Origin: Eledone cirrhosa
Taxonomy: Eukaryota
NCBI GenBank assembly: GCA_964016885.1
Contig: OZ024742.1
Location: forward strand, 66,154,001-66,218,000
Direction of reading: 5' to 3'
DNA: 64,000 nt
Shown: positions 5,983 to 63,045 of the stretch, piece by piece
Position numbering within the stretch: position 1 is the first letter of the stretch
How the letters are laid out: each line of letters starts with the position of its first letter
Position numbers and translations under genes: made by a program
The notes under the pieces: generated by a model
Told to the model about the DNA's origin: nothing
The model's database searches: none
Seen by the model: the letters and a program-made list of their open reading frames with translations, nothing else

Positions 5983-6563
5983 CGTGTGTATATGTCTACT
6001 TATGTACATTTGATAGCTATAATAGTAATTCAATTTATTGATACATACAATCAACATGTTGTATTTCACCTGAAGCTCTATTCATCTCTCAAGAGGTTTT
6101 CTCCTTTATCTTAAAGTTTAAATTGTCTGAACTTACTCTCTAGAGAGAAGGCTCTACATGTTCATACTCTCTACTAGATCTAACAGTCAAATCTTAAGAT
6201 CCTACACTTAATTTGTTTGATATAAGTTAAGATACGTTTATAACTTCCTCGCCATAAAAGTGTTTGTTACATTCGTTAATTTTGCTGTGATTTTATGTTA
6301 CATCTTTGTGTGAAAAATACCTCCTACAATGCTAGGTGATAAAATAGTTAAGGGTAATGTTAAAAAGATTAAGAAGTCTATGACGTGCAATAAGATGAAA
6401 TAAAAAAAAAAATCAGCACCAATGAACATCGTTAAATTTCTAGTATTTCGACTGTAATAGTGAAAATATTTTCATATGTTTGTAGTGTCACATATTTGTA
6501 AAACCCATGACTGCATTAAATGTGTGTCTAGAGAAAAGGTTATAGAATCTAGTCTACAGAAAT

Positions 6564-6707
6564 AATTGTTTCTACTTTTGGCACAAGGCCAGCAATTACC
6601 CAGTGCATTGCTGGTACTTTATTTTATCGAACCCGTAAGCATGAAAGGCAAAGTTAACCTCGGCGGGATTTGAACTCAGAATGGCAAGGGCCGTAACTCT
6701 ATGCGTC
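6564..6707 (-). mobile_element. tRNA-derived SINE with Meta-type central domain
   Basis: RC has B box GAGTTCAAATCC, core GCCTTTCAT..GGTxCGATAAAATAAAGTACCAG and tail CCTTGTGCCAAAAGTAGAAACAATT. Confidence 0.85.
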
Positions 6708-8442: not shown

Positions 8443-8443
<1 letters not shown>

Positions 8444-9158
8444 AATATGGGTGAGAAGAATACTGCTGGTTGCACATGGATAACATGTTATAAAATGAGT
8501 CCCTCATCAGTGATTTACCAATCGATCATGGGTATTTCATCGCATTAAAAATCATATACCTCACGTTGGACCGATAATAACTAAAATAAGTTATTAGGAC
8601 AATAGAAACGCGTAAAGCGAGAGAGACAAGTAAACAACACAGGGGGAAGCTAACCGAAGATGGAAATAAACACAAGCAACATAGTTATTCTTTCAGCATA
8701 AGCTGTGTGAAAATATGCGCGAGTCTGAAACAGACCTTTCGCTAGTGAATTCGGTGTTAGAAAGAAGGAGAACCGTTTTCAGAGCGAACGGGAGGAAGAA
8801 AGAAGGGGAGAAACAGGGACTGGGTGAGTGGGAGTGCGAGGAAGAGGTCAGTAGAGAGAAAGTGTTAACTGACATGGCAGAGGGGACGAAAGAAAGTAAG
8901 AGAAACAGAGAGAACGAGGGAGCAGTAAGAGAGAAAGAGAGAAACACAGAATTGCAGTTTGGGTAAATATGGGTGAGAAGAATACTGCTGGTTGCACATG
9001 GATAACATGTTATAAAACGAGTCCCTCATCAGTGATTTACCAAACGATCATGGGTATTTCATCGCATTAAAAATCATATACCTCACGTTGGAGCGATAAT
9101 AACTAAAATAAGTTATTAGGACAATAGAAACGCGTAAAGCGAGTGAGACAAGTAAACA
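8443..9158. mobile_element. Non-coding unit with ~194-bp direct terminal repeats (period 522) in (TA)n; PLE pLTR or retrozyme-like
   Basis: 8443-8636 nearly identical to 8965-9158; related inverted fragment at 15281-15380. Confidence 0.65.
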
Positions 9159-9308
9159 TAGATATATATATATGTATATATTTTTTTTGGTATATTGTTG
9201 GTTGTTTACCGATACCTCAGTATGCAGATTGGAGCACTCGACCGGAGTAATGTAAAATAAAGTAATTAAGTCAAATATTTAAGATTTGGCTTCTTTTATT
9301 AAAAATGT

Positions 9309-9363
9309 ACTGCTACATATATTTCGGAGACAGCCATCATTGGCTGTGACCTCTTCAGGCAGT
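9309..9363 (-). ncRNA. Type I hammerhead ribozyme
   Basis: RC: actgc CTGAAGA ggtcacagcc-aatgat-ggctgtctcc GAAA tatatg TA gcagt. Confidence 0.85.
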
Positions 9364-9516
9364 TCGAATTGGTGTGGTAGAGACTGGTACTCATGAATCA
9401 TATGATTCCAGTTCCTCAGAGAAATAACAACCCAACCAGGAGCTGGACATATCGGCGTATTGATGGAGTAAAACATTTTAACAACATGAGTACCTGTCTC
9501 TTCCACACCAATTCGA

Positions 9517-9571
9517 ACTGCCTGAAGAGGTCACAGCCAATGATGGCTGTCACCGAAATATATGTAGCAGT
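9517..9571 (+). ncRNA. Type I hammerhead ribozyme
   Basis: actgc CTGAAGA ggtcacagcc-aatgat-ggctgtcacc GAAA tatatg TA gcagt; perfect stem I, short near-palindromic stem III. Confidence 0.88.
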
Positions 9572-9916
9572 ACATCTTTAATAAACGAAGCCAAATCATA
9601 AATATTTGACTTAATTACTTTATTTTATATATATATATATATATATATAATTAACGGCGATGAATTAGTTTTGCGAGGTTCTTTTATATGAAATCGTGTG
9701 TCGAAACAAATATTGTTATACTTGGGGAGGGTCATATTTGTGTAATATTGCCAGAATTAATAACAGAATACACTCACTGTTTGGTTGGTTTTCGCTTTTC
9801 GCTTCTGTGTCTTTTATATGGGTAACCTAATTTACTCGGTCCTCAATGTTGTCATTGACTGACCGACGGTCAAAAATAATACAGATACAATAAGACACAA
9901 ACACATATATATAGTT

Positions 9917-11090: not shown

Positions 11091-11254
11091 TTTGAGTATC
11101 AGTCAATGACAACATTGAGGACCGAGTAAATTAGGTTACCGATATAAATGACACAGAAGCGAAAAGCGAAAACCAACCAAACAGTGAGTGTGTTCTGTCA
11201 TTAATTCTGGCAATATTACACAAATATGACCCTCCCCAAGTATAACAATATATA

Positions 11255-11295
<41 letters not shown>

Positions 11296-11303
<8 letters not shown>

Positions 11304-11420
11304 ATAGTCAGGACTCCCACGGCTGAGCTCCGGCCGTTTCGACAGCTAAATCCGAACATTTCGGATCTAACTATGTAAACGGTCGGAGCTCAGTCGTCGG
11401 AATCCCGACTCTTTTCATAT
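11296..11420. repeat. ~60-bp-arm hairpin; family also at 43783-43842, with its tail at 11436-11490, 42646-42700 and 43741-43780
   Basis: gaaaatagtcaggactcc..gagctccggccgttt..tccgaa versus ttcgga..aaacggtcggagctc..gactcttttc. Confidence 0.75.
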
Positions 11421-11658
11421 TAAACACTATACTAACCTACGTATTGAGTACTCTGGTACGTTATGGCCGAACTGGTATCTTAATACACTCTCTTTATATG
11501 CATATATTGAGTTGTAACATAAAGTCCCGCCGTTGTTATAAACCTTCTTAATAAGAAAACGGCGGGAATGTATGTTACAACCCAATATATATATATCATA
11601 CATACCCATATCCACACACACACATATATGTGTGTGTGAGTGTGTACATATGCCTCTG

Positions 11659-14607: not shown

Positions 14608-14939
14608 TATATATATATAAAGAAGAAATTAAAAGATGGTTAAAAAAGTCCCATATATTTTATTATGCGCATTTCGAAAACAACATCATCTGTGTTCTCA
14701 TCAGATAAAATAAGGTAAGATGATATGAGGCCTAAAAACACTTGTGAACAAGAAAGTGTTCAGTCAACACAATTTTTGTCCTCGGATGATGTTGTTTTCG
14801 AAATGCGCATAATATAATATATGGGACTTTTTTAACCCTCTTCTAATTTCTTCTTTATATATACACTAGTTCTGCCAACTGTCGAGTGCTACTTATCTGA
14901 TATATGCATAGTTTTATTTTTCTACAGTATTACTCACCT

Positions 14940-14943
<4 letters not shown>
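14608..14943. mobile_element. Fold-back PLE pLTR-type unit, family B copy 1
   Basis: Inverted arms 14613-14691 and 14785-14862; shares arm and 3' tail (..ctcacctccta) with 54580-55025. Confidence 0.8.
14656..14712 (-). ncRNA. Type I hammerhead ribozyme
   Basis: RC: tattttat CTGATGA gaaca..tgttttc GAAA tgcgca TA ataaaata; 8-bp stem I, palindromic stem III. Confidence 0.88.
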
Positions 14944-15015
<72 letters not shown>

Positions 15016-25557: not shown

Positions 25558-25646
<89 letters not shown>

Positions 25647-25746
25647 CAAAGTGATATTTAAATTGTTGGTAATTCAACAAATATATTTATAACAGATTCG
25701 AAGCACTCGACAAGTTTTCTGGAGTATTAATATCATATATATATAT

Positions 25747-26724: not shown

Positions 26725-26865
26725 AGTTTATGTTGGTTGTATACCAACACCTCAGTATGCAGGCTGGAGCACTCGACGAAGTGCGCAGGTTGGTTTGGTT
26801 ACTCCGGAGTAGTGTAAAATAAAGTTAAATAAAAGTCAAATGATTAAAATTTAGCTTCGTTTATT

Positions 26866-26920
26866 GCTGCTATATATATTTCAGCGACAGCCATCTTTGG
26901 CTGTGACCTCTTCAGGCAGT
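26866..26920 (-). ncRNA. Type I hammerhead ribozyme
   Basis: RC: actgc CTGAAGA ggtcacagcc-aaagat-ggctgtcgct GAAA tatata TA gcagc. Confidence 0.82.
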
Positions 26921-27066
26921 TTGAATTAGTATGGTATAGACAAGTACATATGTTGTTTAGGTGTCCCAGTGAATTAACAACCCAACAAGGAACTGGGCAT
27001 ATCAGAGTATTGACAATATCATACACCTAAACAACATATGTACTTGTCTATACCATACTAATTCAA

Positions 27067-27121
27067 ACTGCCTGAAGAGGTCACAGCCAAAGATGGCTGT
27101 CACTGAAATATATATAGCAGT
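27067..27121 (+). ncRNA. Type I hammerhead ribozyme
   Basis: actgc CTGAAGA ggtcacagcc-aaagat-ggctgtcact GAAA tatata TA gcagt. Confidence 0.85.
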
Positions 27122-27421
27122 AATAAACGAAGCTAAATTTTAATCATTTGACTTTTATTTAACTTTATTTTATATATATATATATATATGCGTGTATGAG
27201 TGTGTGTATGCTTTAATTCTTTCAAATCTTCATCAACACTCATTAACACCCCACCCCACACCGCAGACACATCCAAATCTCTCTTATATATAGAGTCACA
27301 CATCACAACACAACCTGAACTCAGTTTGACAATCGCCACCGACAAATGCGAGAAAGTTCTCCAAAGAAGTTAACCAGGAATCTTTAAAATTCTCCCCACC
27401 GAAGTTAACAAAGAACTTACT

Positions 27422-31076: not shown

Positions 31077-31077
31077 A

Positions 31078-31362
31078 ATAATTACTTCTGCGTTCACAGA
31101 TTGATTGTTTTAGTTTCAGAAGACCCCGTTAAGGGTGAAAGCAGCGATTATTTGCTTAACCTTTAATCTGTTATTTTAATAAATATTTGCTCTACGGTTC
31201 TTATATATTTGATAGGATAAATATATATCAAATATATAAGAACCATAGAGCAAATATTTGTTAATATAACAGATTAAAGTTTAAGAAAATAATCGCTGCT
31301 TTCACTCTTAACAGGATCTTCTGAAACTAAAAAAATCAATCTGTAAACGCAAAAGTAATTAT
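31078..31362. repeat. Fold-back unit with ~125-bp arms next to (TA)n; third arm copy at 46114-46190
   Basis: aattacttctgcgttcacagattgatt..ggttcttatatatttgata versus its reverse complement at 31225-31362. Confidence 0.85.
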
Positions 31363-31377
31363 TAGTATATATATATA

Positions 31378-37095: not shown

Positions 37096-38349
37096 TACAC
37101 ACAGAGAGGGAGAGAGAGAGGGGGGGTACGGGAGAAAGATATCAAGAGTGATGAATGAGATGTGTCAGAGAAGTTGTATGTTTGTAGTTAGTAGTAAACT
37201 GACAGATAATGAGTTCAATACCCATTGATTCTATAGCTTTTAATTGTCATGTAATGATAGGTGAAACAGTACATGATGGTGATGGGGATATTTGTGATGA
37301 TCGTGGAGAGGGGAGCCATAGCTGGCTGGTGTTACTTTTGGTGGTGGCTGCGCTGGCAGTGTTTGTAGCTGTCGGCATGTTTACCATATAGAGAGTAAAG
37401 GTAGAGATAGAGTTATATGGCGGAATAGACAATGTTTGAAAGAAAACTGTAACTGCACAGAACAAAAGACGTAGTTCAATAAAATACATTTCCACACATT
37501 GAAGCGAATAGACACGGTGTGATGCTGCTGTAGGCGATTGCAGTGTTGATGTTGTTGGTGGTTGTGCCGTTGGTGCTAGTATTGTTGGTGATGGTGGTGG
37601 ATTTGTTTTTTTTTTTGTTTTTTGCCGTTGAACTGATTGTCATGGTTGTTTACGATGTTTTTGCGGTTGTGTTGATTCTGATGTTACTTGTGGTGTTGTT
37701 GCTGCTGGTAATACTGATGATAAGGCTTGTGGTGACGTCGGTGGTAATAGTGTTGGTATTGGAGTTTGAGATGTTATTAGTGGTGACAGTGATCGTGAAT
37801 TTGCTGCTGTAGTCGTTATTGGTGGTACTTACGTTGGTGATAATTGTTAGGGTATTTGCAATGTTGGGGTTGTTGTTACTGGTGGAAATGGTGGTGGTGG
37901 TATAAGATGTGATGGTGCATGTTGTTTTACCCATTGAGTTGATTAGCATGGTTTTACGTAGCGTTTGCTGTTCTGCTGATTCCAATGTCAGATGTGGCGT
38001 CGTTGTTAGTTGTGGTGGCTTGTAAAGGTAATTGTTTATATTTAGCCCAGATTGTACAAATCTATTGTCTGCCAAATGGATTCCTCTCTGGATAATATCG
38101 TCTGTTTACTGTGTGCAATATAGCCAAGATCACATTATACATTTTTTTAAAGTCAGTACAATATTATTTAAGATAGTTGGCTGCTATTTATGGCAGTCAT
38201 ATGGCCAAACAGGGACTCCATCACGAGCTTGCTGTAAAGGTGTTGAGCTCTGTGACTATTGAAACGCATGCATCAATAGCAATGGGAAACGTTGTCTGGA
38301 TATGGTGGTAAAATTATAGGTGTTGATGGTCGTGGTGATGATTATTGTA

Positions 38350-38812
38350 ATAATTGTTTCTACTTTTGGCACAAGGCCAGCAATTACTGGTACTTTATTT
38401 TATCGACCCCGGTAAGGATGAAAGGCAAACTTAACCTCGGCGGTATTTTAACTCAGACTGTAAAGGGACGTAACTATGCTTATTGATTATTGTAATAATT
38501 GTTTCTACTCTTGGCACAAGGCCAGCAATTACCCAGTGCATTACTGGTACTTTATTTTATCGACCCCGGTAAGGATGAAAGGCAAACTTAACCTCGGCGG
38601 TATTTTAACTCAGACTGTAAAGGGACGTAACTATGCTTATTGATTATTGTAATAATTGTTTCTACTTTTGGCACAAGGCCAGCAATTACCCAGTGCATTA
38701 CTGGTACTTTATTTTATCGACCTCGTAAGGATGAAAGGCAAATTTAACCTCTGCGGGATTTGAACTCAGAATGGCAAGGACCGTAACTCTATGCGTCCGA
38801 CTGCCAATCCAC
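38350..38812 (-). mobile_element. Three tandem Meta-type SINEs (local tandem duplication)
   Basis: Each unit includes the same flank tgattattgtaataattg; the first two share private variants. Confidence 0.88.
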
Positions 38813-42237: not shown

Positions 42238-42254
42238 AGAATATATAATAAACA

Positions 42255-42508
42255 AAAGACAGTTACTTTAGTCCATCCCTATTTATTTTATTATACGTAT
42301 TTCGAAGATGTACGGCTTATGTATAACTTAAGTCAAAACATGTTCTCTTCAGTTAAAACCACATATATAGATATCATTTGATATGCAGGCGGTCAGACGA
42401 GCTAATTAACTCGGAAGAGAACATGTTTTGACTTATGTTATACATAAGCCATACATGTTCGAAATACGTATAACATAAATATGGATGGACTAAAGTAACT
42501 GTCTTTTA
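42255..42508. mobile_element. Fold-back pLTR-type unit, family C
   Basis: Arms ~42255-42350 and ~42414-42508, each with GAAA tacgta TA. Confidence 0.8.
42286..42358 (-). ncRNA. Type I hammerhead with long stem II
   Basis: RC: tttta a CTGAAGA gaacatgt..acatcttc GAAA tacgta TA a taaaa. Confidence 0.75.
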
Positions 42509-42709
42509 TCAATAATTATTATAACAAAACTGTGGATAAACATATACTGTTGAGTACTTGGCATCTGTTATATAAAAGTCGGCTGATTCAAAATCAACTA
42601 ACTCTCTTTAATTGAACAAAAAAAGAAAGAAAATATAAATATTACCCTACGTATCGAGTACTCTGGTGCGTTATAGTCCACCTGGTATCTTATCCCACAC
42701 CTTCTGTAT

Positions 42710-42740
<31 letters not shown>

Positions 42741-43468: not shown

Positions 43469-43840
43469 TACACACGTGTACGTACGACTTAAGCCTTAGG
43501 AAAAAATAGAATAACATGATAGGTTACAAAACTGTTCGTTAGAATGATAGATAATATCCGTTCGACGGACTAATCTAGCTAGTTTTACTCAATGTTTGCA
43601 CGCATAATATGTTATGGTAAACAAATATAAAACCGATGTCGAATCAAACATGGGTTACAATTAACTACTCGACAACGTTCCCACCACAAAGAAACACACA
43701 CACACACATACACACACACACACACACGCATATATATATATGGACCATAGTGCACCAGAGTACTCGATACTTAGGGTAATAGAGTTCGGACCTAGCTGTC
43801 TAAACGACCGGAGCTCACCCGTCGGAGTCCTGACTCTTTT

Positions 43841-43922
<82 letters not shown>

Positions 43923-44208: not shown

Positions 44209-44213
<5 letters not shown>

Positions 44214-44892
44214 GAAAATATAGAAATTATTGTGACCAAGAAGCCAACTGTATTTCATAATATATAAGTCACTATAACGTCAAAATGGAAAATAATTAAC
44301 GTAAGATATGGGAAAATAATTCAAACTCAATTAAAAAAAAAAAATCAAGACCGAGATTTTATCAACAGATTTTGTGAAATCCAGGGAAAAACCAATAGAG
44401 TCTTAACTCAGAATCAAATAAAGCTTAAATACTCATCCTTCAATTTGGAAAAACTACGAATGTTCTATATAGTCTTAAAAAGACTATTTCACGAAACTTT
44501 TCAGTGTGGATGGTCACGGTTGGAGTCGTTCATCAGTAGATCTCAAACACGATAACCCTATGGCACTGCCAGAATATGCCAAAAAGTGAATTTAAAAGCA
44601 GGCTAGTTCACCTCGTGCAGAATTATAAAAATAAACACACATGGGGAGACACGGCTGGTGACGCCAAAATGAGACGAATGTCTATTTACAAGAATCAGCA
44701 GTCAAAAACAATCCGAAAAAACTCTACAAAATGTAAGGAGTTCAGCAAAATAGCAATATTATCACGGTGTTTTTTTATGAAAAGACCGGGATTAGTCACA
44801 AATAATTTTAAGCACTCCAGGAAAAATTCCGAGAATAAATATAAATGAAAATATAGAAATTATTGTGAGCAAGAAGCCAACAGTATTTCATA
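44209..44892 (-). mobile_element. Non-coding HHR-bearing unit with ~50-bp direct terminal repeats (period 633); retrozyme or PLE derivative
   Basis: aatgaaaatatagaaattattgtga.caagaagccaac.gtatttcata at both ends; (TA)n flanks. Confidence 0.7.
44462..44542 (-). ncRNA. Type I hammerhead with fully paired stem III
   Basis: RC: gatcta CTGATGA acga..tcgt GAAA tagtctt-ttt-aagacta TA tagaac. Confidence 0.85.
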
Positions 44893-44899
44893 TATATAT

Positions 44900-46017
44900 A
44901 TGACATATTAACAGCTATACAATCCTTCATAACTTATACCTTGTCCAGTAATGAATAGATAACACTCTATAGAGACATTTAATGTATGATAGTAAATTAC
45001 ACTGTATTTAAAATCAGGTATAAATATGCAGCGTTATGTAACAGAGATCAAATGGTATCACATTATATTGTGTATTAGAACAAATAATTTTAATAACTGA
45101 ATTGAACTTAATTAGCTAGTTACCTTCCCTTACGCATTAGCTCCACTTATTCACTTCTGGAAATTAACGATTGAAAATGTAACGGTTGATCAAATATAGT
45201 TTATGAATATGAATTCATTAAGACTAATTTACAATCCATTGCTCTAACTAACTTAAAAGATTCAATATAAACATTAACTAAAATTTGATTCAACATATGT
45301 CATGGAAAAGTTTGCAAAAACTATGTTTCTCAACACACATTAATTCGAACACTATCAACATTCAATATCCACCATAGATTCTAATACATTAACATATTTG
45401 TTTAAAGTGCAGTATTTATTCATCTATATATGCATAATAGCCTTGCTTGTCTCCTTCTCATGTATATGACTTACTCAGTCACACTATCCACACGCCTGCA
45501 TATGAATTGTTAATGCACTCTTCCTTTCACAAAATACTTTCTCAATGCCTCTTTAATAATTGGACTATTCTCTTGTTTTATCTGTTGCATGTATTCCACT
45601 CCGTGCTTTTGATTTTAATTTAATTTGAATTTGAATTTGAATTTGAACTTGAATGTTTGTACAATTCTCGTAAAATATATCTCACATCCATTCCGCCCTG
45701 TAAATACGAAACTGTTGCTCACAAAATAAATTCATACGTATCTATATTATTGTTCAGTTGAATAGGAGGTTATTTATATGTGCAAACATTGATAATGCTC
45801 CGATGATACCAAACGAGAGTTTGGAAGAAACGATTGTCAGCTATTAAATGATTTGAACACAACTTTGATAATTGTATAATTTATTTATTTTCCCGCTCTG
45901 TAAAACAACTGATGTTCATACATTGAGCTATTTCTTTTACTGGTGATAAGGTAATAAGAAATTACTGAGCTTCCTGTTTATAGTTGTTTATACCATATAC
46001 ATAACTATAAATAGTAT

Positions 46018-46083: not shown

Positions 46084-46184
46084 ATAATAATAAATTTGAA
46101 GACTAAAATCCAAAGTTTCAGAAGATCCAGTTAAGGGTGAAAGCACCGATTCTCTGCTTAAACTTTAATCTGTTATTTTAATAA

Positions 46185-46668: not shown

Positions 46669-49600
46669 TCTTAGTCTTAGTCTTAGCTCCTCTAGTTCCT
46701 TGTGGAACATTGGGCGACGAGCTTCCTCCACTCGATCCTGTCACTGGTGGCCCTTCTAGCACCTCTCCAGGTAATTCCCATCTCATCTCCCGCAGGTCCT
46801 CCCTGAATGTGCTCCGCCATGTTTTTCGTGGTCTTCCCCGTTCTCTCTTGCCACCTTCTGGTACCCAATCCATGGCAATATGTGCAGTTCGATCTGCCGG
46901 CAAACGAAGGATGTGGCCCGCAAACCGCCGTCTCCTTTTCCGGACAATGTCCCTTAATCACTCCAATCCTCACCTCCTCATCACTTGCTCGTTGCTAACT
47001 TGGTCTCTCCATGAAATTCTTAATATGGTCCGAATGCAACGACGGTGGAATACATCAAGCTTATTAGATACACTTTCCGTACTCTTCCATGTCTCACGGG
47101 CATATATCGCTGTAGGTACTACAATGGACATTTAAACACGGGATTTGACGGCGTTGCCGATGGAACACCTGGACCATACCGGACGGAGTCGCTGGAAGAC
47201 CGCCGCTGCTTTTCCCAGCCTTGTGCGCACATTCACCTCAGTATCGCCATCGTCAGAGATGTTGCTGCCAAGGTATTGGAAGTGGTTTACAGATTCAATA
47301 TTACGCTGACCAACCATGATGGGAGGATTTGGAGGGTCACCTGTCGACATGGTCTTGTTTTTTTCACAACTGATGCGCAGGCCAACTTTCTCTGCATTGT
47401 CATTTAGAACGTTTGTCATCTCGTGCAGGTCTTCTCGAGAATGGCCTATCACTGCGATGTCATCGGCAAAGTCCAGGTCGCTTAATATCCATCCATCCCA
47501 ACTGATAGCAAAACGAGGGTCACTCATTGTCTTCTTCATGATGAAATCGATGACAATGAGGAAAAGAAAAGGCGAAAGGATGCAGCCTTGTTGAACACCC
47601 GTCAAGATGTCAAACATTTCCGTGTTTCCGTCCTTTGTCCTAACGCAGCACCTAGAATGTCGGTACAGCGACATGAAGATGTTAATATATTTCTCTAGGA
47701 CACCGTAGAGTCTTATAATCTTCCACAATGACTCCCGATGAACACTGTCGAAAGCTTTCCTGAAGTCAATGTAGTTGACAACAAGGGACTTGTGGAACTC
47801 CCGACATTGTTCAATGATATTCCGGAGAGTGAAGATCTGCTCTGAACAAGACCTTCCACTGCGGAAGCCAGCCTTTTCGTCTCGAAGATGACGATCTACT
47901 TCTGCTCTCAGCCGGTTCAGGATGACATGTGCAGAATATCTTCCCTGGCACTGATAGCAACGTGATCCTTCTCCAATTGTTGCAGTCGCTGAGACAGCCC
48001 TTCTTCGGTAGTGGTACAATTACTCTATTTCCCCAGTCCTCCAGCACCTCCTCTTCTTGCCAAATCACATTGCATATATGGGTGAGCTGCTCCTCTATTA
48101 CATCCTTGCCGTGCTTCAGAAGCTCTGCAGGAATCTCATCCAGCCCTGCCGCTTTGTTATTCTTTTGGCAGCGGGTGGCCTTGGCCACCTCAGCTCTTGT
48201 GATGTCGTCTAGTTGTACATCCAGCCGGTAGCTCGCTTCCTCCCAGTCAAGCTCGAAGACTGTGTTGGGGGATGGCTGATTGAGGACCTCACGAAAGTGT
48301 TCGTTCCACCTCTGGGCCTGCTCTTCACTGGTTGTAAGCATCCGACCTTCTTTGCTCTTGATTGGCAAATTGCTTCCACTTCGTCCTCCAGTTAGCTCTC
48401 TGACGACACAGTACAGAGTCTTAGAATCATTTCGATCTGCTGCCACCTGTGCCTCTGCAGCCTGATCTTCTAACCACCGACGCTTGTCTTTTCTACAGCT
48501 CTTCTTTACTTCCTTGTCAAGACGTTTGTACTCTTGTCCACTTCCTTCCATTGCTGTCGAGTTTTGGTTTGATCTCTTTTGTCCTTAACACCCTTCCTCT
48601 CGTCAATGAGATTCCATGAAGTACTGCTGATCCACTGTTCCCGGTTGGTCCCCCTTCTTCTACCAATAACTACATCAGCACTCGCCCTGACCGCCTGAGC
48701 AAACATCTGCCACTGGTCCTCACGGTTCTGTGCGTGCTGTAGTTCTTGAAACTTATTCCTGACTCCGGGTAGACTCCCTCTGACGTGCTTTCGTCGTCCA
48801 GGCTTGCGACAGCATATGGCTTCACGGTCTTATTTGCTTTGTTCTTCTTCAACCGCCTATGGGTGAAGAATGTATTCCCGATGGAGAGGTTTCTGATACT
48901 GCTCAGGGACAACAACCGTTCTCCGTTGTTATTGGTGGAATCAGCTGAACCGTTGGGGCCAATGGCTGAATGCATTTCTCTCCTGTCTCCATCTAGCTTG
49001 ACATTGAAGTCACCCAATCACCAGCCTAATGTCTGACCTGGGTGTTTCCTCTAGGACATCCTGTAGTTGGATAAAGAAGGTATTCTTATCTTCATCTGAG
49101 CCAGCTTCAGTCGGGGTGTAGACTTGCACTACGGTCACCTTGGCTAAACTTGTGCTCAATCTGGCAGTAATAATTCGTTCACTCACTGGCCTCCATCCCA
49201 CAAGAGCCCATGATACATCTCCGGTGAGGATGATACCAACTCCGTGGACATGGTGGTCATCATCACCGGAGTAGAGAATAGTCATGTCTCCGCTGTCGAG
49301 TCCTACCCGTCTTGTCCACCTCGTCTCGTCTCGCTGATGCCCATGATGTCAAGGCGATATTCTCTCATCTCTTTCAGCACCTGCTCCATCCGCCCGCCCC
49401 GAAAGAGCATGCGGACATTCCAGGTGCCTACTTTTGTGTTTGATTTGGCGTTGAAGATAGGACTTATCCGCAGTCGGGCCTCCTTTCGGCTTTGACCCGG
49501 CCCCATCATAGGTGCATCCAAGGATGATGTGTCTTCTCTTTTCCGCCGCTGGTTATCAAAATGGTTTTTTCTCGTCGTTTCTGGAGCGGTGAAAAGCTTT

Positions 49601-49678
49601 TACGGGGGTAGGGCTGCTAACCCCACGCCCCAACCTCCTCCCTTCTCAACCGGGCTTGGGACCGGCTAATGCGGGTTA
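46669..49678 (-). mobile_element. Near full-length RTE-clade LINE (APE+RT), frameshifted with an internal deletion, inserted in (TA)n
   Basis: VGTWNVRML, GISE, GDFN, NTFF; NNWRRITLLSVPGK, GFRSGRSCSEQIFTLR, IDFRKAFDS, QQGCILSP, LDFADD, FQYLGS; GRPRKTW; (CTAAGA)n tail. Confidence 0.95.
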
Positions 49679-49759
49679 TATATATATATATATATGATAT
49701 ATATATATATATATATATGATATATATATATATATATATATGATATATATCATATATGT

Positions 49760-54543: not shown

Positions 54544-54579
<36 letters not shown>

Positions 54580-54584
<5 letters not shown>

Positions 54585-55024
54585 AACAAAAGATGGTTAA
54601 AAGAGTTCCATGTATTTTATTCTGCGCATTTCAAAAACAAATATCATCATGCAATATTATTTGTGTTTTCATGAGATAAAACAGGAAGACAGGATATGAA
54701 GGTTAAAAAAACACTTGTGGATAGTTCAGTTTTAAATCAACGTATATTAAATCAACTGATATTAAATATATGTTGATTTAAAACTGAACTATCCACAAGT
54801 GTTTTTTTAACCTTCATATCCTGTCTTCCTGTTTTATCTGATGAAAACACTAATATTATTGTATGATGATATTTGTTTTTGAAATGCGCATAATAAAATA
54901 CATGGAACTCTTTTAACCATCTTTTGTTCTTATATATTATGTATACTCCAGTCCTACAAACTGTAGAGTGCTTCTTATCCGATATCTGCATTGCTTTATT
55001 GTACTACAATAAAACTCACCTCCT

Positions 55025-55025
<1 letters not shown>
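54580..55025. mobile_element. Fold-back pLTR-type unit, family B copy 2
   Basis: ~170-bp arms ~54580-54748 and ~54763-54935 with a short spacer, plus the shared 3' tail. Confidence 0.85.
54832..54898 (+). ncRNA. Type I hammerhead ribozyme
   Basis: ttttat CTGATGA aaaca..tgttttt GAAA tgcgca TA ataaaa; the mirrored left-arm copy has core mutations. Confidence 0.82.
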
Positions 55026-55062
<37 letters not shown>

Positions 55063-59031: not shown

Positions 59032-62000
59032 TTATACTGTCAACGGGATCAGTCGCATATTTTGGCGTGGGAGACTATTTATTAAATTTAAGATGAATAC
59101 TATCTCCGACAGTAATGTCACAACTACAGTCATGTTGAATAACTGGTTATTCTTCTAACTATATCTTCTGAAGAGACCTTTTATTCGAATTCTTAGAGAT
59201 GTCCGACTAAATACATAATTCATTTTACAAGGATTTGCTACAAACAGCATGGCTGAACACAACATCAACAACAAAATTAAGGAAGTTTCGAAGACAACCA
59301 ACAAGAAAGGTAAACAAATGTTATTCAGTTGTAGCTACAGAAGCGACCGAAGTTATAAATCGCATTTCTCTTGGAGTTGCGGACTTAATAATGATTTATT
59401 TAATTGTTATAAAATGGCAAAAAACAATCCCTCCATTGGCTATATGAACAGAATGAAGCTACACTGGGACGAAATGCACCCAGAGCTAAATTATTTCACA
59501 GCGAAACAATTACGCCAACAAGCGACGTTTGCTGAACGTAAAAATAAGGTAAATAGTATTAATTGTAAGTCCCCCACAACAAACATGGAATCGACAACAC
59601 GTGCTACAGATCGCCATGCTACTAGACTTCCTAGCAGCCAGGTCGATCAGCGCCTTGAAACAACTATGTCTGTAAGAAACTTGACACCACCTGTACCATC
59701 TAAGTCTATCTCGAATGCTGGGGAAAACACTATCAATAATAATAATAATCGAAGAAATTTGACACCACGTGTACCATCCGAGTCTACCTCGACTGTTGTG
59801 GGAAATACTATCGATAATGATAATAATCAAAAGTATTCCCTCAACGAAACCTTCCAGAGAGAAATTAACTCATGTATAAATATCCCTCTTGCTGAACGTA
59901 TTAAATCGACAATGTTTAATAAAAAACAAAATAATGAAATATTACGTGTTATTGACGAAATAGGGGATGAATATTTACGGCAGATAAAAACCCCAACATT
60001 TTGGCAAATCAACGCCTATTTATATGCCTTAGCAACGACAGTGAAGCATTATCTTGGTGATAGCAGAGATAATAACAAGAACAGAATACCACCAATAATA
60101 CCATCATATATAACTAAAATAGAACAAATAATTGCTGACGTACAAAAAACCATTATATGGAAACAAACACAAAAAACCTCACTCCTCACCAACAGAGAGT
60201 GAAAAATAAAATAGAGACCACGTTTGGTAATAGTAGAACGATAACTCTTCAATATAAGCTGATCACCCTCAAACAAGAATTGAGAACTGTTAGCGTAAAA
60301 CGCCGATACCTGAAGAAGACAGATGAGAGAAAAGTGCTTAATAAAAGATTCAGACGAAACCAAACATCAGTCTATAAAGATATGAAGAACAAAATAATAA
60401 GTGTCACTGAGGCCCCATCCCAGAAAGACATATATTCCTTTTGGAGCATAATATGGGGTGGAAAGAAGAGTTTCAACCAAGATGCAGTGTGGCTAAGAAA
60501 ATCCGAAAGAACTATTGCTCCTACACTACAACAAAAACATACGAAATAAGTGATGGGTACCCTTGAGACTGTGATAGGAAAACTCCAAGATAAGAAAACA
60601 TCAGGAAGAGACATGATTGTCGGCTAGTGGTACACAACACTGATATTATATCTGAGGTATCTTACTGACCTCTACCAACAAGTTCTTAAGGGAGATACAC
60701 TTATACTAGAATGGTTGACATTAGCACAAACATTACTGGTCCCCAAGAACAAAGACACCCACTTGGCAAAAAACTACCGACCCATTGCATGCCAGAACCT
60801 AATGTATAAGATGTATACAGCCTGCCTAAACCTATTCCTCCAAGATCACTGTGAAAATAATACCATCATCACAGATGAACAAGCAGCTGGAAAGAAAGGG
60901 GTTTGGGGATGTGCTGAACAACTCCTAATCAACAAAACTGCGATGTCGGAGGTGCAGGAGGAATATGGCTACAGTTTGGCTGGACTACAGGAAAGCTTTC
61001 GATTCTGTTCCCCACTTTTGGATGATAGAGGCCCTCCAACTTGCTAAAGTCCCATACATTATTGTCAGAGCCATAGAGAGGTTGTCTTCTTCTTGGGCTA
61101 CTATCCTAAGGTTAAGGACAGAGAGGAGGATTCTACTTTCACTGATAAAATAAAATATCGCAGGGGTATATTTCAGTGGGGCGGACTCTCTGTGATATTA
61201 TTTATCTTGTAAATAAACCCCTTGTCCTTTCTGCTCAAGAAATGTGAGGGATATATCATTGGCTCACGAACCTAACCCATCTGAAACTCTATACCAAGAA
61301 CATGGATGGGATGAAGAAAAATCTTGATCTGGTTACAACGTTCTCAAAGGATATAGGAATGGAGTTTGGCCAAGATAAATGCTCATACATGACTGTAAAG
61401 TGGGGAAAAACAACAACCCAATCTAGCAACATTGTCATCAATGGCCTAACTGTTTCACCGATATCTGATGAGGACTGCTACAGATAACTGGGGATAGATG
61501 AGAACATATCCTATAATGGTATCTGTAATAAAGAACGCGTAACCCGATTAAGAAAGATCTGGTCATCGGAACTCTCTGCACAAAACAAAACAGTGGCTCA
61601 TAGTGTGTTTGCTGTGTCTGTCCTAACACCAACGTTTGGAATACTCAATTGGACGATAGACGATATTCGAGTAGTTGATGTTGGAACTCGAAAAATACTA
61701 AACAACACCGGAAACTTCCACATCAACAGTGACATAGACCCCCTTTACTTGAAACGTAAGCACGGAGGTAGAGGCCTAACATCAGTCCAGACAACATTTG
61801 AATATCTCATCATATCTCTCCGACAACATCTACGAACCTCGAAGCGTAGGAGCCCGTTTCTCGAGCAAGTCTATCTGCATGAAACAGATAAGATCATGAG
61901 AGTTGGTAAGGAACTCCTCGGGAGGTATTCCCTGTGAGATAATCAAAAATTCACACCCAGGGATGTCGCTCAGCAGTATCGCAGTGAATCCATGGATGAA

Positions 62001-63045
62001 AAAGGCATGCTTATCATAAAAAAATCATGCTTGGATATGTTGCCAGGATGCTCCAGAGTGAGAGTAATATAGATAAGGAAAGTAGTCTATTTCAGACCAA
62101 CAACCACTATATTGGCTCCCACTTTGAAGGATACGCTTTTGCAATCCAAGAACAGGTGATTAACACGAAATACCTGATTCACAAAAGAGATAGGGATTCA
62201 GGAAAAACACCTAGATGTGATAACAAGTGCAGACTCTGCAGAACTAACATCGAGGATATCACTCATGTCATCAGCAGCTGTCCAAAGATGTCATCGCGGT
62301 ACTATCTACCTATGAGGCATGATGTAGTGGCCAGAACATTGTACAATGCGGTTCGTAAAAAAGATAGCCCCGATAATAAACACATTAAAAGCTACAGCAA
62401 TGTGGAAGACATCCATGTACATAATAGGAAAGAGTACTGCTGGAATGTTCCAGTGAAAACCCCAATAAAATGCAGGCATAACAGACCAGATATTAAGATA
62501 TGGCTCAGGGAGAAGAAAGCATGCACAGTAGTGGAAATTAGCTGCCCTGCAGATGCCAATATAATATCATAGATTAGCGAAAAGGAGAATATTTATGCAG
62601 AACTGATGAGAAATCTGCAGATACTCCACCCTGATTACACCTTCAGATTTATGCCTGTGATTATTGGGGCACTGGGATATGTTAGTAACTGCTTCAATAC
62701 AAAGCTTGGGAAGCTAGGCTTCACAGGAACAGAAAGAACACAACTAGTTAGGAAATTACAAGTACAATCCATTAATGGAACAGTAAAAATATGTAAAACA
62801 TTCCAAACATTTTGCATCTAATAACTGCATATACACATTTACAGATACAAAGCATATACACATGCGTACTTCCAACTCAAAACATACACATCCACACATA
62901 GAATAACATCCATATCTACACATGAATGCATACATCATCTACCTAGTTGATGTGTAAATTCCAATGAGAGAGTCTTGTGTCTATGTTAGAAAGCGACTCT
63001 CTCTTTATTGGGAAAAAGAAGTTGTGAAATTATAAAGCCAGAAGA
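59032..63045 (+). mobile_element. Near full-length R4/Dong-like RLE non-LTR retrotransposon, disrupted ORF 59249-62821
   Basis: N-terminal GYMNRMKLHWDEMHP..QLRQQ; NYRPIACQNLMYK, WLDYRKAFDSVPH, IGMEFGQDKC; CRLC..EDITHVISSC, RHD, RPDI..VEISCP, PVIIGALG. Confidence 0.93.

What the first reader, a model, noticed from the sequence alone, without database searches (positions are those of the whole stretch)
9195..9630. Fold-back unit with intact hammerheads on both strands; hairpin apparently regenerated at each insertion
Seen: this locus and 26730-27172 are one family, each with two oppositely oriented intact HHRs. Arms share locus-private variants (ttcgaact/aatgat/tgtagcagtacat here; ttcaaact/aaagat/tatagcag there), and both turn a few nt after the same spacer motif (..catatc.g.gtattga). 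Known: PLE insertions often have an inverted 5' pLTR. Inference: a short non-coding RNA with a defined end is mobilised and the inverted arm is made per insertion, so transcripts from either strand contain an HHR and form ~150-bp dsRNA.
Basis: partly seen in the sequence, partly recalled or inferred. Interest (0 to 1): 0.78.

Follow-up and report, generated by a model that had tools for sequence, protein, structure and literature searches.

The report
Head-to-head Penelope stubs with hammerheads
These two 440-base DNA hairpins, each with a small hammerhead RNA motif on both strands, are most likely stubs of a known kind of jumping gene (Penelope-like) whose two halves were probably copied separately during insertion, so the feature is largely ordinary, although its lopsided anatomy would help test how such elements insert.

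Summary
The fold-backs are real: 143-150-bp arms, one type I hammerhead core per strand, and 27 variable columns grouping arms by locus against 0 by side. The anatomy is the described Penelope-like (PLE) insertion: (TA)n, a tail-less pLTR, a head-to-head junction, a pLTR with a 3' tail, (TA)n. At least three more families in the window repeat it. Three corrections. The 'private' variants are subfamily variants (9-49% of depth in other copies). The turn is not fixed: over 9 junctions the tail-bearing arm stops across 212 nt, while the tail-less arm starts within 28 nt, 100-128 nt upstream of the ribozyme core and not at its cut site. In a read-through RNA the hammerhead is predicted to be buried in the duplex (over 80 kcal/mol). 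Best model, inferred: both target strands prime cDNA at the two known PLE start sites and the cDNAs are joined. No autonomous partner, genome or RNA run was available. Known kind; the asymmetry rule is a testable refinement.

The parts
9195..9252 (-). Locus 1: 3' tail (58 nt), on this arm only; conserved tail core at about 9233-9241; ends in an AC-rich stretch
   Evidence: 27-nt deletion against locus 2
9253..9395 (-). Locus 1: tail-bearing pLTR arm, 5'-truncated 37 nt upstream of the hammerhead core
9309..9363 (-). Locus 1: type I hammerhead on the minus strand (C3 9358, predicted cut after 9314)
9396..9484 (+). Locus 1: 89-nt loop = 5' leader of the tail-less arm, colinear with the right arm; 14-nt palindrome 9395-9408 at the junction; stem 9408-9416/9438-9446
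   Evidence: the same leader start is the loose end of 22 X1 contigs
9485..9627 (+). Locus 1: tail-less pLTR arm ending directly on (TA)n
9517..9571 (+). Locus 1: type I hammerhead on the plus strand (C3 9522, predicted cut after 9566)
9626..9650 (.). (TA)n target run, right flank; a TA-rich run also lies at about 9160-9182 on the left
26730..26814 (-). Locus 2: 3' tail (85 nt), ending in a predicted AC-rich stem-loop
26815..26964 (-). Locus 2: tail-bearing pLTR arm with hammerhead (C3 26915, predicted cut after 26871), truncated 49 nt upstream of the core
26965..27022 (+). Locus 2: 58-nt loop = 5' leader of the tail-less arm
27023..27172 (+). Locus 2: tail-less pLTR arm with hammerhead (C3 27072, predicted cut after 27116), ending on (TA)n
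54576..55027 (+). Same architecture, family B copy 1: (TA)n, tail-less inverted arm, 8-nt loop, arm with hammerhead (C3 54838), tail, (TA)n
14620..14944 (+). Family B copy 2: long tail-less arm with whole hammerhead (C3 14704, minus strand); tail-bearing arm truncated inside helix II
11301..11492 (+). Family D copy 1: short symmetric fold-back plus tail; no hammerhead core recognised
43741..43841 (-). Family D copy 2: tail-less inverted arm ending on the same base as in copy 1, joined directly to a tail fragment with no arm overlap

Best explanation
Each locus is a head-to-head pair of short, non-coding repeat ends with a hammerhead motif, most likely a Penelope-like (PLE) insertion whose two arms were probably made in one event, when the element's enzyme would have primed DNA synthesis from both cut strands of a (TA)n target. 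Shown: one arm ends at the pLTR end on (TA)n and keeps the 5' leader; the other carries a 58-85-nt tail and stops at a variable point; arms of a locus are near-identical. Taken from the Anolis PLE in vitro (PMC11167929): both target strands are nicked and extended, and reverse transcription starts at two internal sites that bound the tail. Inferred: the cDNA started at the inner site (tail-less) runs to the 5' end of the RNA, probably the transcription start inside the pLTR; the cDNA started at the tail end follows on the same or a sister RNA and stops early; the two 3' ends are joined with little homology, sometimes with re-primed extra pieces. The finished hairpin is likely a dead end: the arm with the leader lacks the tail, the arm with the tail lacks the leader, and a read-through RNA is predicted to bury the ribozyme in a 143-150-bp duplex.
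For: Architecture matches the published one: inverted 5'-truncated copy and a tail at one end only (PMC8557442; PMC3846280), opposite-strand minimal hammerheads 100-700 bp apart (PMC4209133). Arms group by locus: 27 vs 0 columns in family A, 13 vs 0 in family B. Nine family A junctions (2 in the window, 7): the antisense arm stops over 212 nt, the sense arm starts within 28 nt. In-window pairs agree: family B tail-less 5' ends at -77 to -85 and -80 from C3 while tail-bearing arms are about 185 and 79 bp; family D tail-less arms end on the same base while the partner is a 61-bp arm or a bare tail fragment. In none of the 7 window insertions of families A-D is the tail-bearing arm the longer (4 shorter, 2 symmetric, family C undetermined). 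Junctions with no arm overlap (43741-43841; X24 joints at 26752 and 26766, the first with a repeated tail start) cannot come from one cDNA copying itself. X1 summed depth is about 9.3e5 at the hammerhead and about 5e5 at both tail and leader, as expected if most copies have two arms, one tail and one leader. The hammerhead is conserved between loci (3 of 54 differences) relative to the leader (23 of 91; Fisher p 0.003).
Against: No link to an RT/GIY-YIG gene was shown: no genome is held and none of 34 scanned ORFs (of 75 of 100 aa or more) hit GIY-YIG. Six of the 7 read junctions come from one RAD library that has ligation chimeras at AATT sites; 3 rest on 2 reads and one on a single start. 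Symmetric junctions are probably under-detected, which inflates the clustering. Summed contig depth is not a copy number and dips where locus 2 differs from other copies. Not all copies are hairpins: X1 record 8 has 5.2 kb of other sequence upstream of a lone arm. Loose-end letters upstream of the leader partly agree between X1 and X4, so some copies may extend further 5'. The tails (58-85 nt) are longer than the 30-40 bp described. Two families (B1, D1) have symmetric junctions.
Confidence: 0.6

Rival explanations
1. PLE insertion, but the inverted arm arises by self-priming: one nucleic acid (an antisense template, as proposed in PMC3846280, or the first cDNA) folds back at the junction palindrome and copies itself, and the tail is left on one arm by endonuclease resolution (suggested in PMC8557442).
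For: 14-nt palindrome at the locus 1 junction; symmetric 3-8-nt loops in B1 and D1; arms identical at birth follow naturally; it is the published reading.
Against: The loop belongs to the tail-less strand in A1, A2 and B2, so self-copying cannot supply the tail; junctions with a bare tail fragment and no arm overlap exist; locus 2 has no junction palindrome.
Confidence: 0.22
2. One reading: a dedicated short non-coding RNA (non-autonomous, retrozyme-like, about 310 nt from leader to tail) is the template. This concerns the template and is compatible with either priming model.
For: Defined 5' start; very high apparent abundance (2568 contigs laid in X1); animal retrozymes are reported to derive from PLE pLTRs (bioRxiv 10.64898/2026.07.22.740005); no ORF in the unit.
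Against: No head-to-tail joint (tail end to leader) among the 13 joints; the defined end is 145-172 nt upstream of the cut site, so the ribozyme does not make it; internal priming on the 5' part of an autonomous transcript gives the same stub; neither arm of a hairpin has both leader and tail.
Confidence: 0.3
3. The whole hairpin moves as DNA (a MITE-like element of TA targets), or descends from one long master palindrome, with arms kept alike by gene conversion and junctions varied by later central deletions.
For: Long terminal inverted arms and TA-run targets; conversion could make arms group by locus.
Against: Termini are not symmetric (tail on one side); 9 of 9 junctions differ; central deletion should shorten either arm, but the tail-less arm keeps the leader in every case where the side is known (A1, A2, B2, D2 and two read joints inside the tail); extra pieces at junctions look like re-priming.
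Confidence: 0.05
4. The hairpins are functional host or element RNAs: bidirectional transcripts that self-cleave and release a dsRNA for silencing or editing.
For: Predicted duplex of -260 to -279 kcal/mol; Penelope inverted repeats give siRNAs in transformed Drosophila (PMC3681739).
Against: The ribozyme fold is disfavoured by 81-83 kcal/mol in the full hairpin against 3-8 kcal/mol in a single arm; this hammerhead type is described as needing a dimer and cleaving poorly, and the two copies are on opposite strands; locus 1 arms have drifted 5% apart with no sign of conservation.
Confidence: 0.08

Closest known systems
Insertion structure of endonuclease-bearing Penelope-like elements (Arkhipova et al. 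2013, PMC3846280; Craig et al. 2021, PMC8557442; Schostak et al. 2008, PMC2377424)
   Same: About 200-bp pLTR, inverted 5'-truncated copy joined head to head, tail on one arm only, palindrome at the junction, microsatellite target, inverted repeats of variable size.
   Different: No ORF between the repeats; tail of 58-85 nt rather than 30-40; here the tail-less arm is the longer and has a clustered 5' end, a rule I did not see stated in the passages read.
[quoted passage not shown]
   Same: Type I topology, helix I of 5 bp, long helix II, 2-bp helix III with a palindromic loop; opposite-strand pairs 100-700 bp apart are reported there for Schistosoma mansoni.
   Different: No unpaired base between positions 9 and 10.1; G-U instead of G-C at 10.1-11.1 in locus 2 and in about two thirds of X1 depth; cleavage untested.
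Poseidon of Anolis carolinensis in vitro (Frangieh et al. 2024, PMC11167929)
   Same: Two end points bounding a tail, AC-rich tail end, AT-rich target.
   Different: That work did not address inverted arms in the text I read; the clade of the present family is unknown.
Animal non-LTR retrozymes (bioRxiv 10.64898/2026.07.22.740005)
   Same: Short, non-coding, type I hammerhead, related to PLE pLTRs.
   Different: Retrozymes are head-to-tail tandems with at least two same-strand ribozymes; these units are head-to-head with one ribozyme per strand.
L1 twin priming (recalled, from no call)
   Same: Both target strands prime cDNA, giving an inverted 5' segment joined by microhomology.
   Different: In L1 the two segments are mostly different parts of the RNA; here they overlap by up to 150-185 nt, which makes a hairpin.

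Membership tests
EN+ Penelope-like element insertion | Type I hammerhead with short palindromic helix III inside the pLTR | tested here: met
   4 of 4 arms
EN+ Penelope-like element insertion | Inverted 5'-truncated copy joined head to head | tested here: met
EN+ Penelope-like element insertion | Tail extension on one arm only, with an AC-rich end | tested here: met
   58 and 85 nt, longer than the 30-40 bp described
EN+ Penelope-like element insertion | AT-rich or (TA)n target | tested here: met
   TA-run loose ends before 26815 in 8 X1 contigs and 1 X4 contig
EN+ Penelope-like element insertion | Target-site duplication | tested here: inconclusive
   Both flanks are TA runs, so no duplication can be read
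EN+ Penelope-like element insertion | The same pLTR and tail flank an RT plus GIY-YIG ORF elsewhere in the genome | not testable with these tools
   No genome held; no exact 24-mer match in metagenome, prokaryote or viral contigs
Autonomous PLE | RT plus GIY-YIG ORF within the unit | tested here: not met
   Only short frames in the unit; the one open frame shows no significant synonymous excess (9 of 22 changed codons, p 0.07-0.28)
Non-LTR retrozyme | Head-to-tail tandem of two or more same-strand hammerhead units | tested here: not met
   Both loci are head to head; no tail-to-leader joint among 13 joints listed
Non-LTR retrozyme | Self-cleaved or circular monomer RNA | not testable with these tools
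   No RNA holder listed
MITE / TIR DNA element | Symmetric terminal inverted repeats and a constant interior across copies | tested here: not met
   Tail on one side only; 9 of 9 junctions differ
Active monomeric hammerhead ribozyme | Stable helix III and an accessible core in the transcript | tested here: not met
   Helix III is 2 bp; predicted fold penalty 81-83 kcal/mol in the hairpin; cleavage itself not testable

The most novel reading that the evidence does not exclude
The inverted pLTR of Penelope-like elements is the product of overlapping twin priming at the two internal RT start sites: the tail-less cDNA runs to the RNA's 5' end, the tail-bearing cDNA stops behind it, and the two are joined. 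This predicts a polarity rule (tail-less arm never shorter, with a fixed 5' end marking the transcription start) that several families obey in this one window, and it has seeded this genome with perhaps tens of thousands of 150-bp hairpins that record the mechanism copy by copy.
Probability: 0.45. Interest if true: 0.6.

Novelty: new member of a known kind. Interest (0 to 1): 0.33.

Why it matters
How PLEs form their inverted repeats is called an open question in PMC8557442. A very abundant, short family with marked ends would let the priming models be tested by counting: arm polarity, 5' ends and junction pieces over thousands of copies. It also warns annotators that such units look like MITEs or pre-miRNA hairpins, and it marks a likely large source of long dsRNA in this genome, although expression is not shown.

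Tried and rejected
Whole-genome copy collection: not possible, no genome held. Rfam at E up to 1: 109 matches, none over either locus. RNA evidence: no RNA holder listed; this says nothing about expression. Run X17 laid 0 reads and is no test. The three sharp molecule ends in X24 (26848, 26927, 26972) coincide with the 3 AATT sites of the laid stretch and are rejected as restriction artefacts; for the same reason the 534 X24 loose ends before 26967 were not used to define the 5' end. Listing in organisms B-M is not taken as species range: only X4 was laid, with 14 contigs at depth up to about 58, which trace DNA could give. Search for an autonomous partner: Pfam on 34 of 75 long ORFs gave a LINE-type RT but no GIY-YIG; exact 24-mer scans found 0 in metagenome, prokaryote and viral contigs; a tail-motif scan gave 3 loci, all without TA runs and inside unrelated ORFs, judged chance; the Atlas gave no usable hit for the 95-aa frame at 44268-44552. 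Coding of the leader-hammerhead frame: not significant. The 8-nt tail core is not over-represented by count alone (9 seen, shuffle mean 5.2, 17 of 200 shuffles reach 9); only its position in aligned tails is used. Host identity: the RT search gave only distant relatives (39-69% identity; the few named hits are mostly animal); 'octopus' is a recalled resemblance of the SINE-like repeat and is not shown. No paper holds a 17-mer of the hammerhead. Earlier-finding look-ups by sequence, by genome and by a long word list were empty.

Full report
What is there. Locus 1 (9195-9627) and locus 2 (26730-27172) are the only two members of their family in the window. Each has two inverted arms (139 of 146 and 148 of 150 complementary), a loop of 89 or 58 nt, an extra 58 or 85 nt outside the left arm only, and TA runs on both flanks. 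Each arm carries a type I hammerhead: 5-bp helix I (4 bp in the locus 2 left arm), the full core, a long helix II and a 2-bp helix III closed by a palindromic loop. The strict descriptor finds 6 in the window and 0 in each of 100 shuffles. Rfam does not report them. The ribozymes point outward, so the arms are joined head to head.

Reading the anatomy. The loop is colinear with the right arm and homologous between the loci: it is the 5' leader of the right arm, not a separate spacer. The right arm ends on (TA)n; the left arm continues past the same point into a tail whose end is AC-rich and predicted to form a stem-loop. This is the structure described for endonuclease-bearing Penelope-like elements: an inverted 5'-truncated copy, a tail at one end only and microsatellite targets (PMC8557442, passages); a tail on one of the inverted pLTRs, palindromes at the junction and head-to-head arrangement (PMC3846280, passages). 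Opposite-strand minimal hammerheads 100-700 bp apart are reported in PMC4209133 (parts 1-2 of 4). The window holds more such units of other families: B at 54576-55027 and 14620-14944, C from 42254, D at 11301-11492 and 43741-43841. Their tails align around one conserved core, although that 8-mer is not over-represented by count alone.

Are the arms made per insertion? Of 34 variable columns in family A, 27 group arms by locus, 0 by side, 0 crossed, 7 are single; in family B 13, 0, 0 and 5. Shared variants therefore show a common template lineage and do not alone exclude a mobile hairpin with conversion. The junctions do more. Of the 13 joints, 4 join an antisense arm to the leader (from 26752, 26766, 26840, 26900); table 5c adds 3 more with 2 reads each (26879, 26898, 26921). 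I set aside 6 rows that are the leader running on into the arm (one of them, 26931-27028, ambiguous), 1 deletion, 1 go-back and 1 ambiguous strand switch inside the leader (26967-26988). With the two window loci this gives 9 junctions, all different: the antisense arm stops over 212 nt, the sense arm starts within 28 nt. Nine uniform points fell within 30 of 230 nt in 0 of 2,000,000 trials, but that ignores a real bias: symmetric junctions amplify and assemble poorly, and 6 of the 7 come from a RAD library with chimeras at AATT sites. The joined letters are not at such sites. The window pairs are free of this bias and agree: tail-less 5' ends lie at -126 and -107 from C3 in family A, at -77 to -85 and -80 in family B, and on the same base in family D, while the tail-bearing partners differ. 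In 4 of 7 insertions the tail-bearing arm is shorter, in 2 the junction is symmetric, in 1 (family C) it is undetermined, and in none is it longer. The turn itself differs by 12 nt between the two loci and by far more elsewhere.

Abundance. X1 summed depth is about 9.3e5 at the hammerhead and about 5e5 at tail and leader, against 8.5-10 for the two long flank-bearing contigs. The tool warns this is no copy number; as a rough inference it suggests 5e4-1e5 arms and a typical copy with two arms, one tail and one leader. Lone arms also exist (record 8). The hammerhead differs between the loci at 3 of 54 positions and the leader at 23 of 91 (p 0.003), so the motif was constrained in the source elements.

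Mechanism. PMC11167929 (parts 1-2 of 4) shows for an Anolis PLE that both target strands are cut and extended, that reverse transcription starts at two internal sites bounding the tail, one in an AC-rich stem-loop, and that ribozyme cleavage is not needed. PMC2377424 (passages) places the Penelope transcription start inside the pLTR. Joining these to the anatomy, I infer twin priming: one strand primes at the pLTR end and copies to the RNA's 5' end, the other primes at the tail end and stops early, and the two cDNAs are joined. Junctions in which a bare tail fragment meets a tail-less arm (43741-43841; joints at 26752 and 26766) favour this over self-copying, and the repeated tail start between 26752 and 26967 looks like re-priming. 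Published self-priming remains possible, above all for the symmetric junctions. Whether the template is a dedicated short RNA or the 5' part of an autonomous transcript is open: no genome is held and no partner was found. The defined end lies 145-172 nt upstream of the cut site, so the ribozyme does not make it.

RNA consequences. A read-through RNA of either strand folds into one long duplex (-260 to -279 kcal/mol). The antisense arm comes first in both directions, and forcing the hammerhead costs 81-83 kcal/mol, against 3-8 in a single arm. This ribozyme type is described as dimer-dependent and weak. Small RNAs from Penelope inverted repeats are known (PMC3681739, passages). No RNA run was available, so cleavage, small RNAs and editing are untested.

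Novelty. The kind is known. I did not find the twin-priming reading or the polarity rule in print: 'Penelope + twin priming' gave 2 papers, a second combination 1, a 2023-onward search 30 of which 20 were listed, all judged from listings only. The library lacks most subscription papers, including older Penelope structure papers that I only recall, and I read no supplements (one listed). I also saw part 1 of 5 of the retrozyme preprint and part 1 of 3 of an Octopus repeat paper. The host is probably an octopus, from a recalled resemblance of the SINE-like repeat only; one search did not settle it. Earlier notes of this scan describe similar mini-insertions in other genomes; they are unchecked leads. 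Verdict: real, new member of a known kind, interest 0.33.

Noticed in passing
window 54576-55027 and 14620-14944: Second hammerhead-bearing fold-back family (B) with a perfectly palindromic helix III; same tail-on-one-arm architecture in TA runs. The tail-less arm of the 54.6 kb copy has mutated core letters.
   Followed up: yes
window 42254-42620: Third fold-back (C) with a hammerhead on the tail-less arm, a damaged core on the tail-bearing arm and a homologous tail; followed directly by a bare family D tail at about 42640-42710.
   Followed up: partly
window 11301-11492 and 43741-43841: Family D: tail-less arms end on the same base in two insertions; no hammerhead core recognised. The 5' end might be a ribozyme cut site, which I could not test.
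   Followed up: partly
window 25640-25745 (minus strand): A bare tail, homologous to the A and B tails, sitting alone between TA runs.
   Followed up: partly
window 9233-9241, 26768-26776, 54964, 14883, 42551, 11445, 42655, 43766, 25709: The tails of otherwise dissimilar families share a core of about 10 nt at the same position; a candidate protein-recognition signal.
   Followed up: partly
window 31077-31363 (partial copy 46114-46179) and 11496-11596: Two more fold-backs next to TA runs (127 of 138 and 34 of 39 complementary) with no hammerhead found.
   Followed up: no
window 44213-44900: About 630-bp unit bounded by 55-bp direct repeats beside a TA run, with a hammerhead-like motif with a long helix III on the minus strand (44536-44468) and two short open frames on the plus strand; no Atlas hit for the first, no Pfam hit for the second.
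   Followed up: partly
window 47135-49682 (minus strand): Broken LINE with an RVT_1 domain (E 3e-26); a weak twister-P1 match (49629-49682, 28.7 bits against a cut-off of 67.2, E 0.049) lies at its 5' end next to a TA run.
   Followed up: no
window 59219-62572 (plus strand): Frameshifted non-LTR element; the last frame has a weak zf-RVT hit and motifs that recall a restriction-like endonuclease (recalled, not tested).
   Followed up: no
window 9710-9862 and 11099-11251: 153-bp inverted repeats, 97% complementary, 1236 nt apart, starting 80 nt from locus 1; possible young DNA transposon derivative.
   Followed up: no
window 6561-6700 and at least 14 other places; tandem at 38339-38797: Abundant SINE-like repeat of about 140-190 bp, with head-to-tail doublets and a triplet.
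   Followed up: no
window 8443-8630 and 8965-9152: 188-bp direct repeat, 98% identical, ending just left of locus 1.
   Followed up: no
window 9426-9570 and 26976-27120: One reading frame stays open for 48 codons across leader and hammerhead in both loci, with an ATG in loop II 24 nt before the cut site (the Anolis element has its start 26 nt before); synonymous excess not significant.
   Followed up: yes
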